From positions 1,024,001 through 1,088,000 of the forward strand of contig CAWIAD010000002.1 in NCBI GenBank assembly GCA_963833985.1: a DNA stretch of 64,000 nt. Reading direction: 5' to 3'. Within the stretch, counting starts at the first letter, position 1. Each line of letters starts with the position of its first letter. Source of the DNA: an uncultured Planctomycetaceae bacterium. Lineage in GTDB: Bacteria; Planctomycetota; Planctomycetia; Isosphaerales; Isosphaeraceae. The translations under genes and the position numbers were made by a program. The notes under the pieces are model-generated. The model did not search any database. It saw only the letters and a program-made list of their open reading frames with translations, and was not told where the DNA came from. Of this stretch, positions 145 to 4,681 are shown piece after piece.

Positions 145-208
145 GTGACACGATTGGAATCGTGTCCGACGAGAAGCTCGGAGAGGTGACACGATCAGAA
201 TCGTGTCC
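145..208. repeat. Two tandem REP-like palindromes GTGACACGATnnnAATCGTGTCC (145-167, 186-208)
   Basis: Each copy forms a GACACGAT/ATCGTGTC hairpin. On the minus strand they begin GTCG and, once the intron is removed, GTGG, like GTRG-class REPs. Confidence 0.7.
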
Positions 209-1004
209 TTGCGTCAGGAAAGCTCTGGAAAGGAGGAAGAGACTCGAACTCGGAAACCTTTCGTTGAAACCCTGAAACCCTGCGGGTACGGATCCCGCCT
301 GGCAAAGCTGGACCAGCAGCCAGAAGCGAGTCTTGCGTGGTGATGGGGCAACCCATCCTGCGAAGCGTGGACAGCCAGGTCAAAGGTCGTGTGATTGAGC
401 CCCGAAAAATTCTTGACCGCGTGGAGCCTTCGTCGTGGACACAGGCGGGGACCGTGTCAGGCAACTGACTCGTGGTCCACTCAGCCTGGCTGATCCTGCT
501 GGGGTCGAAGAGCACGGACAATGACCACCAGGGTTTCCAGGGAACCTTACTTAGAGCCCCCGACGTCTCCATCGACATTCCGGACGAGGAGCCCGGAACC
601 CCAGATCTCTTGGCCTCCGGTGGGCCGCCCACCACCGAGGGGAGCGAACGACGGGAGGAACGACGGTATCGGCTCGTGAAGATATCGAAACGAGCTGAGA
701 ATGACGGCGGCGAGTCGGAGCGTCCATCGTATCGCCGAAGCAGGGGAACCATCCCGAGGGACCCCGTGGAGAGAAGGGGACGCCATGTCATGACACCGTT
801 GGAGAGAACCATGGCGGGTGCATCGAAACCCTTAACCGTGCCAACAAAACAACAACGGATCGCGGAGTCGGGTACGAGATGGGGCGCTGATTCACTCAGG
901 GAGCCGTCCCGTAGCGATTTCATGATATGACGAGCCGTATGCCCGAGAGGGCACGTACGGATCCGTGGGAGCCCCGGGGGAGCAATCCCCTGGGGCCACC
1001 CGGC
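209..1004 (+). mobile_element. Group II intron, ORF-less (intron-encoded protein internally deleted)
   Basis: 5' end TTGCG. Domain V GAGCCGTATGCCC-GAGA-GGGCACGTACGGATC (932-963) has the AGC triad. Domain VI hairpin has a bulged A998. EBS1 GGACAC (437-442) sits in a hairpin loop and is complementary to the flanking exon GTGTCC (203-208). Confidence 0.9.
811..930 (+). pseudogene. Remnant of group II intron reverse transcriptase/maturase (N-terminus fused to C-terminal stub)
   Basis: MAGASKPLTVPTKQQRIAE resembles an IEP N-terminus and has an RBS (GGAG). It stops just before domain V and has no RT domains or YADD. Confidence 0.75.
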
Positions 1005-1219
1005 CACAAAGAGCGGCCTCCCGGGCATCCACGATCGCATCAACCTGCCGAATGCCTGTCAAAGAATGATTGCGAACCTGCTTGGCTGGCGGCCCGATCC
1101 CGGAGGGCAGGGGCCACGGCTGGTGTTTGAACACGGCGGGCGTTAGCTTAGCTCTCTGCGCGGTCCCTTTTCCGCCGGCCGCGCTGGAAACGGAAGTCTT
1201 GCGATTCGAGGAGTATACG

Positions 1220-4200
1220 ATGAGGCAATGCCGTAGCTGGTGGCCATTGGCGCGGATCACGGACGCGTACCTCTGTCTCGGCCTGTGCGTATCCGTGGTG
1301 GCCTCGCCCGCTGCCCGGGCCATCGACACCAGTGACACGCGGCTGCTGGGATCACCAGCGATCACGGTGGGGAAGATCGCCTTTGTGTATGCGGATGATG
1401 TCTGGACCGCCCAGCCCGATGGGAGCGGTGCGCGCCGGCTCACGTCGCATCCAGGACAGGAGAGCAGCCCCTACTTTTCGCCCGACGGCAGGCACGTGGC
1501 GTTCACGGCAAGCTACGATGGCAATGTCGATGTTTACGTCGTGCCATGCGAGGGCGGCGAGCCGAAGCGGCTCACCTGGCATCCCGGCGAGGATATCGTC
1601 CGCGGCTTCACGCCCGACGGCAAGGTCCTTTTCAGCTCGCAGTGCGCGGTGTTCTCGCGCAGGCATGCGCAGTTCTTCACCGTCGGCATCGCGGGCGGCG
1701 TGCCGCAGGCCCTGCCGGTTCCCTCCGGCGACAAGGGCGCGATCTCGCCGGACGGCAGCTCCCTGGCCTACACGCCCCTGGGCGAGCGCTTTCACCAGTG
1801 GAAGAACTATCGCGGAGGCACGGCCTCGCGGATCTGGGTGCTCAAGCTGGCTGACCTGTCGCACGAGGAGATTCCCAAGCCTTCCGGCGGATGCAACGAT
1901 ACGCAACCCATGTGGATTGGCCAGACCGTTTACTTCCTCTCCGATCGCGATGGTGAGTTCAACCTCTACGCATACGACCTCAAGACCCGGAACGTGGTAC
2001 GCAAGACCAGGCACGAAGCATTCCCGGTCGAAAGCGCCTCGGCGGGCGCAGGGCGGATCATTTACGAGCAGGCCGGATACCTGCACGTCTTCGATCCCGG
2101 CGTGAACGAGTCCAGCCGACTGAAAGTGGCCGTGGCGGCCGACCTGGCGGAGACGCGCCCGCGCTACGTGAGCAATCCCAAGACGATTCGCTCGGCCGAT
2201 CTCTCACCTACCGGCAAGCGTGCGGTGTTCGAATACCGCGGCGAGATCGTCACGGTTCCCGCGAAGAAAGGAGACCCGCGCAACCTGACCGAAACCGCCG
2301 GCGCGCACGAGCGTTCGCCGGTCTGGTCGCCTGACGGCAAGGCGATCGCCTGCTTCTCCGATGCCTCGGGCGAATACGCGCTCCAGATCCTTCCCCAGAA
2401 TGGACGGGCGCAGGGGCAAATCCATCGCCTCAAGGGCGCTGGTTTCTTCGAACGCCCGGTCTGGTCTCCGGATAGCAAGAAGCTGGCCTTCAGCGACAAC
2501 TCCCGTACCCTCTACTGGACCGACCTGGGTTCGGAAACCGTCCAGCGCGTTGCCGCCGAGCCGGTTTACAGTCCCATCAATACACTGCAAGCGGTCTGGT
2601 CGCCCGACTCGCGCTGGCTCGCGTACACCAAGACCACCAGGGCGGGCATCCAGACGATCCAGCTCCACTCGCTCGAGCAGGACCGCTCGTTCCAGGTGAC
2701 CGATGGACTGGCCGAGGCGGCAGAGCCGGTCTTCGACAAGAGCGGCAAGTACCTCTTCTTCCTGGCATCCACGAATGCCGGGCCCGTCAAGAACTGGTTC
2801 GATCAGTCGTTCACGGATATGCCGCTATCCATGTCCATCTACGTGCTCACACTCCAGAAAGCGACACCAAACCCGCTTCTGAAGGAAAGCGATGAGGAGG
2901 GCGCGGAGGCAGCGGACAAGACGAAGGAAGAGTCCAGGCCCGAGACCAGACCGGATTCCGACTCGACGAAGAAAACCGACTCCAAGGAGGCCGAGAAGAA
3001 AGACCCAGGCGCATCCAGAGATCAGGCCTCGGGGAGCGAGAAGCCGGCCGGCGGCAAGGAAGTCGCGAAGGGCAAGAACGTTGAACCAGTCAAGATCGAC
3101 CTTGCGGACATCGCTGACCGCATCATCGCCCTGCCGGTGCCGGAAGGGATGATCAGCAATCTCAACGCGGGGGAAGGCGGCGAGCTTTACTATCTGCGGC
3201 GTCTGACTGCACGACCCGGGCGCGGTGAGGAAGGGATGGGCAAGCCGTCGCTGCGCCGCTTTACCCTGAAGACACTAGAGGAAGAGACGCTGGCCGAGGA
3301 GATCGATGAGTTCCACCTCTCCGCCGATCACAAGAAAATCCTCTACCGTTCCGGCGAAGGATGGGGCATCGTCGATGCCGGCAAGTTCCACAAGGGGGAC
3401 GGAACCCTGGCATCCCTGGGCGCGATCTCTATCCGCATCGACCCCCGGGCCGAATGGGCCCAGATGTTCCACGAAGCCTGGCGCATCAATCGCGATTACT
3501 TCTACGCCCCCAACATGCACGGCGCCGACTGGGACGCCGTGCGCCGGAAGTATGACGCGCTGCTGCCGCACCTGGCAAGCCGCGGCGACCTTGACCGCGT
3601 GATCCGCGGAATGCTCAGTGAGCTTGCCGTGGGCCATAGTTTTCTGGGCGGGGGCGAGCGGCTCTACGAGCCCAGGACCGTACCTGTGGGCTTGCTCGGG
3701 GCCGACTACGAGGTGGCCGACGGGCACTTCCGGTTCAAAACCGTCTACGGTGGAGCCTACTGGGACCCGAGCCTGCACGCGCCCTTGCTGGCGCCAGGAG
3801 TCAATGTCCAGCAGGGCGACTTCCTGCTCGCCGTGAACGGCAAGCCGGTCAGCACCGGCACCGAGGTCTACAGCGCCTTCGAGGGGACCGTCGGCAAGCG
3901 TACCGAGCTCAAGGTCGGGCCCCGGGCCGACGGCACGCAGGCGCGCAGCGTCGTGGTCGAGCCGATTGCCGACGAAGGTGCACTACGAAACCGGGCCTGG
4001 GTGGAGAAGAACCTGCGCACCGTGCACGAGCGGACGAAAGGGCAGGTCGCCTATGTTTACGTGCCGAACACGGCGGACTCCGGCTATGACTACTTCAAGC
4101 GCTATTTCTTTCCCCAGGCCGACAAGGCGGCAATCATCGTTGACGAGCGGTTCAACGGGGGCGGCCAGGTCGCCGATTACTACATCGAGTTGCTGCGCCG

Positions 4201-4681
4201 GCCACTGGTCAGCTACTGGGCCACACGCCACGGCGCGCCCATCCGCACGCCGAACGCGGCCATCCTCGGGCCCAAGGTCATGATCATCGACGAGACAGCC
4301 GGCTCCGGAGGCGATCTCTTGCCCTGGATGTTCCGGAAGTTTCGTCTCGGGCCCCTGGTCGGCAAGCGAACCTGGGGCGGCCTGGTCGGCATCCTGGGGT
4401 TCCCCGTGCTCATGGACGGGGGCCAGGTGACCGCACCCGACCTGGCCATCTTTACCGACGAAGGCTGGGTGGTTGAGAACGTCGGCGTGGCGCCCGATAT
4501 CGAGGTCGAGCAGGACCCTGCCGCCGTTGCCGCCGGCAAGGACCCTCAGCTTGATCGTGCCATCGAGACCGTCCTCGAGGCGCTGGCCAAGAACCCGCCC
4601 CCCCCAGCCCCTGAGCGGCCACCCTTCCCCATGCGCGTCCGCCCCGGTTCGGACATCCGTGCACGAGGGAATGGTCCCTGA
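1220..4681 (+). CDS. Tricorn protease homolog (S41 family, PD40 beta-propellers, PDZ)
   Basis: Signal peptide, repeated xSPDG propeller motifs, DERFNGGG, catalytic GSGGD, GKRTWGG; RBS GAGGAG before ATG 1220. Confidence 0.93.
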   Translation: MRQCRSWWPLARITDAYLCLGLCVSVVASPAARAIDTSDTRLLGSPAITVGKIAFVYADDVWTAQPDGSGARRLTSHPGQESSPYFSPDGRHVAFTASYDGNVDVYVVPCEGGEPKRLTWHPGEDIVRGFTPDGKVLFSSQCAVFSRRHAQFFTVGIAGGVPQALPVPSGDKGAISPDGSSLAYTPLGERFHQWKNYRGGTASRIWVLKLADLSHEEIPKPSGGCNDTQPMWIGQTVYFLSDRDGEFNLYAYDLKTRNVVRKTRHEAFPVESASAGAGRIIYEQAGYLHVFDPGVNESSRLKVAVAADLAETRPRYVSNPKTIRSADLSPTGKRAVFEYRGEIVTVPAKKGDPRNLTETAGAHERSPVWSPDGKAIACFSDASGEYALQILPQNGRAQGQIHRLKGAGFFERPVWSPDSKKLAFSDNSRTLYWTDLGSETVQRVAAEPVYSPINTLQAVWSPDSRWLAYTKTTRAGIQTIQLHSLEQDRSFQVTDGLAEAAEPVFDKSGKYLFFLASTNAGPVKNWFDQSFTDMPLSMSIYVLTLQKATPNPLLKESDEEGAEAADKTKEESRPETRPDSDSTKKTDSKEAEKKDPGASRDQASGSEKPAGGKEVAKGKNVEPVKIDLADIADRIIALPVPEGMISNLNAGEGGELYYLRRLTARPGRGEEGMGKPSLRRFTLKTLEEETLAEEIDEFHLSADHKKILYRSGEGWGIVDAGKFHKGDGTLASLGAISIRIDPRAEWAQMFHEAWRINRDYFYAPNMHGADWDAVRRKYDALLPHLASRGDLDRVIRGMLSELAVGHSFLGGGERLYEPRTVPVGLLGADYEVADGHFRFKTVYGGAYWDPSLHAPLLAPGVNVQQGDFLLAVNGKPVSTGTEVYSAFEGTVGKRTELKVGPRADGTQARSVVVEPIADEGALRNRAWVEKNLRTVHERTKGQVAYVYVPNTADSGYDYFKRYFFPQADKAAIIVDERFNGGGQVADYYIELLRRPLVSYWATRHGAPIRTPNAAILGPKVMIIDETAGSGGDLLPWMFRKFRLGPLVGKRTWGGLVGILGFPVLMDGGQVTAPDLAIFTDEGWVVENVGVAPDIEVEQDPAAVAAGKDPQLDRAIETVLEALAKNPPPPAPERPPFPMRVRPGSDIRARGNGP

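What the first reader, a model, noticed from the sequence alone, without database searches (positions are those of the whole stretch)
145..1010. ORF-less group II intron whose EBS1 targets a REP-like palindrome
Seen: a 796-nt element with intact domains V and VI. It has non-canonical ends (5' UUGCG, 3' CCCGGC rather than AY) and only 39 codons of its RT gene left. EBS1 GGACAC (437-442, in a hairpin loop) is the exact complement of the flanking GTGTCC. Removing 209-1004 restores GTGACACGATCAGAATCGTGTCC-CAC, a second copy of the palindrome at 145-170. Established: IIC introns insert after hairpins, whereas IIA/IIB introns use longer EBS-IBS pairing. Inference: this is a non-autonomous, MITE-like intron that homes into a multicopy intergenic repeat family, is mobilised in trans, and may combine both targeting modes (it also has a short 32-nt domain V).
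Basis: partly seen in the sequence, partly recalled or inferred. Interest (0 to 1): 0.78.

Follow-up and report, generated by a model that had tools for sequence, protein, structure and literature searches.

The report
Gene-less intron hopping between DNA repeats
A group II intron (a self-splicing-type mobile RNA) that has lost its own enzyme gene sits in a small DNA repeat between genes, which it likely found by ordinary RNA-DNA base pairing after a one-letter retuning of its guide sequence; its two unusual end letters change together across the lineage, giving a natural test of a predicted contact between intron ends.

Summary
Window 209-1004 is an ORF-less bacterial class E group II intron inserted precisely in a repeat family (147 units, 64 clusters in this genome).

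The UUGCG/GGC ends are lineage features, not damage. Of 84 introns with both ends called, 76 are U…G, 7 are G…A and 1 is G…G (that start is doubtful).

Targeting is IIB-type. EBS1, EBS3 and a short EBS2 covary with the flanks. This copy's EBS2 differs from a 95%-identical full-length relative by one base, matching a one-base target difference. I found no support for IIC-type hairpin targeting; the 32-nt domain V is a shortened 33-nt class E domain.

The same double-deletion junction occurs 13 times in 6 congeneric genomes at different sites, so the ORF-less form spread, probably in trans. Here it is single, somewhat decayed, and its only class E protein donor is non-cognate.

Several relatives target the terminal repeats of Y1/HUH transposase genes; that link was not shown for this window's repeat.

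Precedents are TeI3 and RmInt2. The scan noted similar systems in other genomes, and a second intron in this same repeat.

The parts
145..170 (+). Empty repeat unit (imperfect palindrome), first of two tandem units
   Evidence: sequence; family of 147 units
186..208 (+). 5' part of the invaded repeat unit (5' exon); IBS2 AGAAT at 197-201, IBS1 GTGTCC at 203-208
209..1004 (+). ORF-less class E group II intron, 796 nt, 5' UUGCG, 3' ACCCGGC
214..553 (+). Domain I (approximate bounds); private 8-nt duplication near 265 and 4-nt duplication near 548
   Evidence: RNAalifold consensus of 66 introns
310..315 (+). alpha (GGACCA), complementary to alpha' (TGGTCC, 473-478) in the terminal loop of the second DId3 stem
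   Evidence: 4.83 of 6 WC pairs against 4.31 shuffled (max 4.51 of 500)
409..413 (+). EBS2 (AUUCU), complementary to exon -12..-8; the 95%-identical full-length relative L281 has AUACU
437..442 (+). EBS1 (GGACAC), complementary to IBS1
507..507 (+). EBS3 (G), complementary to C1005
   Evidence: 91% WC pairs among 58 introns, best column for exon +1
554..783 (+). Domains II (554-716) and III (720-783); J2/3 GGA at 717-719 (gamma G717 would pair with C1004)
   Evidence: gamma assignment inferred
784..930 (+). Domain IV with three-piece IEP remnant: 811-866 (start), 867-888 (from RRVRDG), 889-925 (C-terminus)
932..963 (+). Domain V, 32 nt, AGC triad 933-935, GAGA loop
965..1004 (+). Domain VI, bulged A998, penultimate G1003, last C1004
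1005..1083 (+). 3' exon: end of the repeat unit (CAC) plus the conserved ~80-nt right arm of the repeat element
   Evidence: 30 other copies

Best explanation
This is an ORF-less bacterial class E group II intron, inserted precisely in a multicopy intergenic repeat, that likely arrived by retrohoming with a reverse transcriptase borrowed from a full-length relative and is probably now decaying. Shown: class E ancestry; six domains; EBS1/EBS2/EBS3 complementary to the flanks and covarying across the lineage; the same double deletion of the ORF at different sites in 6 congeneric genomes; U…G versus G…A ends. Inferred mechanism: (1) a full-length IEP splices the ORF-less RNA in trans through the retained DIVa region; (2) the RNP reverse-splices into DNA where 6+5+1 bases pair with EBS1, EBS2 and EBS3, with no need for a hairpin; (3) with no endonuclease domain, cDNA is primed at the replication fork, as for other En-minus introns (PMC4424553, passages); (4) small EBS changes move sub-lineages from one repeat family to another, here one EBS2 base (AUACU to AUUCU) tracking one target base (AGTAT to AGAAT); (5) U1 and the penultimate G likely form a compensatory version of the contact between first and penultimate nucleotides. 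Repeats, including terminal repeats of Y1/HUH transposase genes, would supply renewable non-coding landing sites.
For: Class: IEP tree groups the lineage with the class E S.me.I4 piece (SH-aLRT 96), sister to class D, apart from g1/g2/g3 anchors. EBS1-IBS1: 5.47 of 6 WC pairs over 127 introns against 2.92 shuffled (max 3.28 of 5000); 5.09 against 2.02 over 43 EBS1 types. The best-covarying column for each of exon -6..-1 is 442..437, and for +1 is 507. EBS2: best run 3.25 against 2.74, 0 of 500 shuffles as high; control exon windows not significant. One-base EBS2 difference from L281. Shared junction: 13 matches in 6 of 121 genomes, with at least four different 3' flank types. Targets repeated locally: 20 of 48 against 8 of 96 controls. 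Ends: 76 U…G, 7 G…A, 1 G…G of 84, switching several times on the tree. A published CL1 intron also has UUGCG..GU ends (PMC7923331, passage).
Against: No mobility or splicing was observed. One complete copy in this genome although 26 empty units carry GTGTCC|C and 14 also fit EBS2. The copy has more broken conserved pairs than 52 of 66 introns and more changes at near-invariant columns than 58 of 66. The only class E IEP in the assembly is non-cognate: 74% RNA identity, 62-65% protein identity to the cognate IEPs; cross-mobility between RmInt1 and RmInt2 (72% identical) failed at the natural target (PMC4615759, passages). L281's 5' exon is missing, so its target family is inferred from 8 nt of 3' flank. 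The window's repeat flanks none of the 7 Y1 genes in the genome and scores at background against 36 Y1 loci (12 of 21, control 10). Over all 70 targets the Y1 excess is small (26 against 17 at 13 or more of 21; 9 against 2 at 17 or more). Class E rests on one anchor and a quick tree. Some relatives target non-TIR sequences.
Confidence: 0.75

Rival explanations
1. Dead relic that never moved as an ORF-less RNA: a full-length intron homed here, and the ORF-less domain IV was acquired afterwards by recombination or gene conversion with another copy. The shared junction then reflects recombination rather than trans-mobility of this copy.
For: The window's 369-868 region is 94-96% identical to full-length L281 but only 79-91% to other ORF-less copies with the same junction. 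Mosaic ORF-less introns exist in the lineage: L035/L039 share DIV at 0.92 but DI at 0.79; L017/L064 share DI at 0.94 but DIV at 0.47. Single decayed copy.
Against: Conversion still needs an ORF-less donor that had spread. G005 holds four junction copies plus one variant at different sites. Contigs from RNA libraries of two studies bridge both junctions (X17 record 9, X20 record 25), although these are contigs and not shown to be transcribed.
Confidence: 0.15
2. Hybrid targeting: the RNP recognises a DNA hairpin, as class IIC introns do, in addition to EBS1.
For: The invaded unit is a palindrome that folds at -11.2 kcal/mol as DNA. DV is 32 nt. EBS2 pairing is short in many repeat-targeting relatives.
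Against: IBS1 lies inside the stem, so the hairpin would compete with EBS1. Median z is -0.38 and only 10 of 76 exons have z below -2. EBS2 and EBS3 covary with the exon. The triad is AGC or AAC in all 57 DVs parsed, and 46 are 33 nt. The IEP is class E; no class C anchor was in the tree.
Confidence: 0.06
3. Chance landing: the intron recognises only a short motif and the repeat happens to contain it, so there is no specialisation on repeats.
For: GTGTCCC occurs 812 times in the genome. 28 of 48 relative targets show no close local second copy.
Against: With IBS2 added, 14 of the 22 genomic matches lie in this repeat family. Relatives' targets are multicopy families: 60 and 38 copies in G005 and G010, 16 in G004, 46 in this genome. 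Three of these families flank Y1 genes.
Confidence: 0.04

Closest known systems
Bacterial class E (IIE) group II introns, e.g. S.me.I4, Cl.be.I2 (PMC3753933, Introduction and passages; PMC3552965, text parts 1-3 of 4 and Table S2; PMC5894124, passages)
   Same: IEP clade; RT-maturase with no endonuclease domain; alpha' in a DId3 terminal loop; 5-nt DV loop in most relatives; compact RNA; EBS1, EBS2, EBS3.
   Different: U1/penultimate-G ends; 32-nt DV with a tetraloop in this sub-lineage; frequent ORF-less derivatives; preference for small repeats.
ORF-less TeI3 introns of Thermosynechococcus elongatus (PMC2882425, passages)
   Same: Shared deletion breakpoints with N- and C-terminal ORF remnants; families with diverged EBS sequences; mobilisation in trans (shown there); one family sits in an IS200-family element.
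   Different: TeI3 is class CL/IIB1, 17 copies in one genome. Here the form is class E, spread over several species, single and decayed in this genome, with altered ends.
RmInt2 (class D) homing into the inverted repeats of ISRm17 (PMC4615759, passages)
   Same: En-minus intron that uses a transposon's inverted repeats as multicopy targets through EBS1-3 with relaxed EBS2.
   Different: One IS family and a full ORF. Here several non-coding repeat families are used, three of them terminal repeats of Y1 transposase genes.
TIRYT terminal inverted repeats with the GGGGWSAS motif (PMC3733652 and PMC6006769, passages); IS elements that target REPs (PMC1525189, search listing only)
   Same: Most target junctions in the family resemble the reverse complement of GGGGWSAS; the window unit matches 7 of 8 positions.
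   Different: Those papers' passages describe no intron in such repeats. No Y1 gene was found beside the window's own repeat family.
Class IIC introns (PMC4424553 and PMC7923331, passages)
   Same: 32-nt DV length (recalled as IIC-typical); palindromic DNA at this site.
   Different: 6-nt EBS1 plus EBS2; AGC triad (CGC in IIC is recalled); insertion within the stem's 3' arm; class E IEP.

Membership tests
Group II intron | Six-domain fold with catalytic DV and bulged A in DVI | tested here: met
Group II intron | GUGYG…AY boundaries | tested here: not met
   UUGCG…GC, shared by 76 of 84 introns with both ends called; variant boundaries are known (PMC7923331, PMC4238363 passages)
Group II intron | EBS1-IBS1 and EBS3-IBS3 pairing with precise insertion | tested here: met
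Group II intron | Self-splicing or retrohoming activity | not testable with these tools
   searches gave only contigs of relatives; no spliced junction
Bacterial class E (IIE) | IEP groups with class E | tested here: met
   clade with the S.me.I4 piece, SH-aLRT 96. One anchor, identified as the disrupted intron on pRmeGR4b. Tested on full-length relatives because this copy has no IEP. No g4, basal-F or class C anchors.
Bacterial class E (IIE) | alpha' at the terminus of a DId3 stem-loop | tested here: met
Bacterial class E (IIE) | 5-nt loop in DV | tested here: inconclusive
   33-nt DV in 46 of 57 relatives, but this copy and 9 others have 32 nt with a 4-nt loop
Bacterial class E (IIE) | Additional bulge loop in DId3 | not tested
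   not scored separately
Bacterial class E (IIE) | IEP without endonuclease domain | tested here: met
   P0001, 449 aa, only RVT_1 in Pfam
Class IIC | No EBS2 and a 3-4 bp EBS1 | tested here: not met
Class IIC | Insertion downstream of a stem-loop | tested here: not met
   10 of 76; here IBS1 is in the stem
Class IIC | CGC triad in a 32-nt DV (recalled) | tested here: not met
   AGC 43, AAC 14 of 57
Non-autonomous (trans-mobilised) intron | Same ORF deletion at different insertion sites | tested here: met
Non-autonomous (trans-mobilised) intron | Cognate IEP donor in the same genome | tested here: not met
   only a 74%-identical relative; assembly 96% complete
REP/TIR of a Y1 (RAYT/TIRYT) transposase, for the window's repeat | Multicopy, intergenic-type, in inverted pairs or clusters | tested here: met
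   distance to genes not computed genome-wide
REP/TIR of a Y1 (RAYT/TIRYT) transposase, for the window's repeat | Flanks a Y1 transposase gene | tested here: not met
   0 of 7 Y1 genes in this genome; background score against 36 Y1 loci

The most novel reading that the evidence does not exclude
A widespread class E sub-lineage has replaced the near-universal G1·A(penultimate) contact by a compensatory U1·G pair and switched back several times, always at both ends together. In Isosphaeraceae it lives as a specialist parasite of HUH-transposase terminal repeats and similar small repeats. There, ORF-less satellite introns hop from one repeat family to the next by single-base changes in their exon-binding sites and by swapping 5' halves with full-length helpers.
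Probability: 0.45. Interest if true: 0.65.

Novelty: new variant of a known kind. Interest (0 to 1): 0.48.

Why it matters
The contact between a group II intron's first and penultimate nucleotides is predicted from mutants and has a spliceosomal parallel. In RmInt1 (GUGYG-type start assumed) a penultimate G strongly impairs the second step (PMC4238363, passages). A lineage in which U1 goes with G and G1 goes with A provides natural compensatory pairs, testable with four constructs.

[quoted passage not shown] Here 16 of 84 introns with both ends called are ORF-less. The sample was seeded with an ORF-less query, so this is not a frequency estimate.

The case also shows retargeting between repeat families at one-base resolution, and two unrelated introns sharing one repeat on opposite strands.

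Each behaviour has a precedent, so the gain is in the combination and in the end-pair covariation.

Tried and rejected
Hairpin (IIC-type) targeting: rejected. The hairpin test used 40 mononucleotide shuffles per exon; two z values of -10 are small-variance artefacts.

Boundary shifted by one base: rejected. The relative in the CTGACA|CC repeat is unambiguous, and head-to-tail copies agree.

Class F/g2 guess: rejected by trees; both are quick trees, and the careful search did not finish.

EBS3 near 497-500, and EBS2 pairing at -13..-20: no covariation.

A Y1 gene for the window's repeat: none in this genome. The repeat was not found in 60 other family genomes, only 2 of them congeners.

Y1-flank versus control test: weak, and the control windows contained repeat copies.

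A candidate U…A counter-example (L177) and L176: the 5' calls did not look like domain I, so they were set aside. Four U…AT calls (L121-123, L170) and L016 had replaced or disrupted DVI; their 3' ends were set aside. L133 is counted as G…G, although a UAGCG start 5 nt downstream pairs better with its EBS1.

Rows dropped before the counts: 2, 8, 11 listed (miscalled start, no flank, or 5' flank being another intron). End calls used regexes and HMMs trained mostly on U…G introns.

Sequencing runs: none holds more than 0.16 of the words. Laid contigs are relatives and show neither splicing nor expression of this copy.

Single-sequence folding of domain I was uninformative (z -1.31). The first alpha/alpha' count used wrong coordinates and was redone.

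Literature not seen: Simon et al. 2008 is not held; the class-specific boundary figure of PMC4028801 (Figure S1.doc) was not read, as one search returned the command table instead; Chanfreau and Jacquier 1993 was seen only as cited. These could already record UUGCG/GC ends for class E. Nine paper searches returned no listing on class E introns homing into REP/TIR repeats or on U1/penultimate-G coupling; only listings and selected passages were read.

Full report
Observation. Window 209-1004 carries Rfam matches to group II domains I-IV (RF02005, 95.5 bits) and V-VI (RF00029, 36.6 bits, E 2.6e-5). It begins TTGCG and ends ACCCGGC. The window lies in a 10.2-Mb, 96%-complete genome. Named holders of the closest related proteins are mostly Isosphaeraceae and other Planctomycetota. 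The flanks belong to a repeat. The downstream arm has 30 other copies, all empty at this junction, and the palindromic unit has 147 copies in 64 clusters against 1 for a reversed control. A 24-letter unit pattern was not found in 60 other family genomes, only 2 of them congeners. The 39-codon frame is a three-piece remnant: 19 in-frame N-terminal codons identical to the IEP of L270, 22 nt from the RRVRDG motif, and the last 11 codons in another frame. Contigs of full-length relatives break off at 866 and resume at 889.

Copies and donor. This genome holds one complete copy, an internally deleted relic (C2:509292, 88% over 176 nt), two DVI-like stubs, and one full-length relative (C2:4727520, 2016 nt, 74% identical, 449-aa YADD IEP, P0001). 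The other RT matches appear to belong to a second, unrelated intron family. P0001 is 62-65% identical to the IEPs of the closest full-length relatives, one of which (L281) is 94-96% identical to window 369-868. So no cognate donor is present in this assembly.

Class. Two quick IEP trees place the lineage away from the g1, g2, g3 and class D anchors taken from Table S2 and S1 of PMC3552965. It groups with the disrupted class E intron S.me.I4 of pRmeGR4b (SH-aLRT 96), sister to class D. Class E/F RNA features given in the Introduction of PMC3753933 fit: alpha' lies in a DId3 terminal loop and covaries with alpha, and 46 of 57 parsed DVs are 33 nt. Ten, including this one, are 32 nt, and the triad is always AGC or AAC.

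Targeting. Relatives matched in 27 of 61 genomes searched, this one included. With named genomes and metagenomes I catalogued 127 introns with a 5' flank, 84 with both ends (dropped rows are listed under Tried and rejected). EBS1 pairs with IBS1 at 5.47 of 6 against 2.92 shuffled, and at 5.09 against 2.02 over 43 EBS1 types. Among 88 representatives under 95% identity, the best complementary column for exon positions -6..-1 is 442..437 in order. For +1 it is G507 (91% of 58). For -10 and -9 it is 412 and 411, and for -11 column 413 ties for best, giving a short EBS2 (0 of 500 shuffles as good; control windows negative). The window's EBS2 AUUCU pairs with AGAAT. L281 has AUACU, which would pair with AGTAT of the GTATGGTGTCC|CCGGAACT family that its 3' flank indicates (its 5' exon is missing). 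That family has 60 copies in G005, 38 in G010 and 1 in this genome. I infer a one-base retuning onto a locally abundant repeat. Hairpin recognition is not supported: IBS1 is in the palindrome's stem, and only 10 of 76 exons fold better than z -2.

What the targets are. Targets have a near-copy within 400 nt in 20 of 48 cases against 8 of 96 controls. Three target families are the inverted repeats beside Y1/HUH transposase genes: AACTGACA|CC (this genome's full-length intron), GCAATGTCC|CC and GTATGGTGTCC|CC. They resemble the reverse complement of the GGGGWSAS motif of TIRYT repeats (PMC3733652 and PMC6006769, passages). Against generalising: the excess over control is small for all 70 targets (26 against 17 at 13 or more of 21), the window's repeat scores at background and flanks none of 7 Y1 genes, and some sub-lineages use other sequences.

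Spread without an ORF. The exact double junction occurs 13 times in 6 of 121 family genomes, all in the same genus, plus one variant. The 3' flanks differ, and where the 5' end is present EBS1 is GGACAC, GGACAT or a variant. Sixteen of the 84 introns are ORF-less and are scattered over the RNA tree. Some are mosaics of one domain I and another domain IV, so the number of independent ORF losses is not resolved. Contigs from RNA libraries of two studies bridge both junctions, which is only a hint. Mobilisation in trans is inferred by analogy to TeI3 (PMC2882425, passages).

State of this copy. It breaks 6 of 171 conserved pairs (52 of 66 introns break fewer), differs at 10 near-invariant columns (58 of 66 differ at fewer) and has two micro-duplications. 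Relatives' contigs show the consensus letter at several of these places. It occupies 1 site while 26 empty units carry a perfect IBS1 and IBS3, 14 of them also fitting EBS2. It is probably inactive or weakly active; this is untested.

Ends. Of 84 introns, 76 have U first and G penultimate, 7 have G and A, and 1 has G and G with a doubtful start. Hand-read plasmid and reference introns agree: L320, L321 and L322 are U…G; L319, L323, Ni.ha.I1, Rh.js.I1 and Sr.me.I2 are G…A. On the IEP tree the state appears to change at least three times (quick tree, several forks open). A CL1 intron with UUGCG..GU ends is in print (PMC7923331, passage). The first-penultimate contact is predicted, and a penultimate G impairs the second step in RmInt1 (PMC4238363, passages). 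I infer a compensatory pair. Whether class E UUGCG ends are already recorded could not be checked in Simon et al. 2008 or in Figure S1 of PMC4028801.

Comparison and verdict. It works like TeI3 (trans-mobilised, EBS-diversified) and RmInt2 (homing into inverted repeats; PMC4615759, passages), and it is a class E intron by the tests available. It is not IIC-like. Earlier notes of this scan describe similar class E, repeat-targeting, ORF-less systems in other genomes and the second intron of this repeat; these are unchecked leads, not support. Novelty: new variant of a known kind. Interest 0.48, carried mainly by the end-pair covariation and the one-base retargeting.

Noticed in passing
G000 C2:1391320, C2:2152285 and 10 more 5' ends: A second, unrelated group II intron (canonical ends; groups with Ni.ha.I1/g3, SH-aLRT 99) sits in the same repeat family on the opposite strand, in the palindrome loop: 11 of 12 5' ends follow a repeat unit and one lies in the element's left arm. 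Already noted by the scan (e1-8770752, e1-9195349).
   Followed up: partly
G000 C1:773979-778100 and similar copies: Most RT genes of that second intron are split at profile position 188 by a ~2.0-kb insert with a 626-aa serine-recombinase-like frame (one copy read; name by resemblance). Already noted by the scan (e1-8385481 and others).
   Followed up: partly
L003 (G000 C2:2428030): A domain VI-only stub of the class E intron lies inside the repeat array beside a Y1 transposase gene, partly duplicated within the array.
   Followed up: no
L002 (G000 C2:509292-509100): Relic of the same sub-family: the first 176 nt joined directly to a shortened domain VI.
   Followed up: partly
L004 (G000 C2:6249915-6249955); L032: The domain VI hairpin occurs alone as a near-perfect inverted repeat, resembling a terminator; it may be a recruited remnant or a chance look-alike.
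   Followed up: no
L082-L087 (G020); A sub-lineage with EBS1 CUUCGU inserts after GGAAACGAAG, a multicopy sequence (16 matches in G020) that also resembles the domain II loop of these introns; one match lies within intron L022.
   Followed up: partly
L143, L149, L159, L239, L310: Head-to-tail intron junctions (3' end directly followed by a 5' end).
   Followed up: partly
L220 / G026 C16:299300-303800: An intron-Y1 transposase-intron nest: a Y1 gene with its terminal repeats lies inside one intron, and an intron end lies next to a repeat.
   Followed up: no
L121-L123, L170; L036: Copies whose domain VI is replaced or interrupted by other sequence; L036 carries another intron's DV-DVI-like end.
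   Followed up: no
L022, L136, L254, L309, L316 flanks: More distant relatives sit in other short tandem-like motifs that I recall from beside GxxExxY and four-helix-bundle genes; recalled, not tested.
   Followed up: no
window 932-963 and relatives: The G of the AGC triad faces A (GGAUC) instead of the usual U in most class E relatives examined.
   Followed up: no
window 1220-4681 (+): Tricorn-type S41 protease gene directly downstream, same strand as the intron.
   Followed up: partly
window 145-1083: The repeat element here lacks the left arm and inverted units seen in most complete copies.
   Followed up: no
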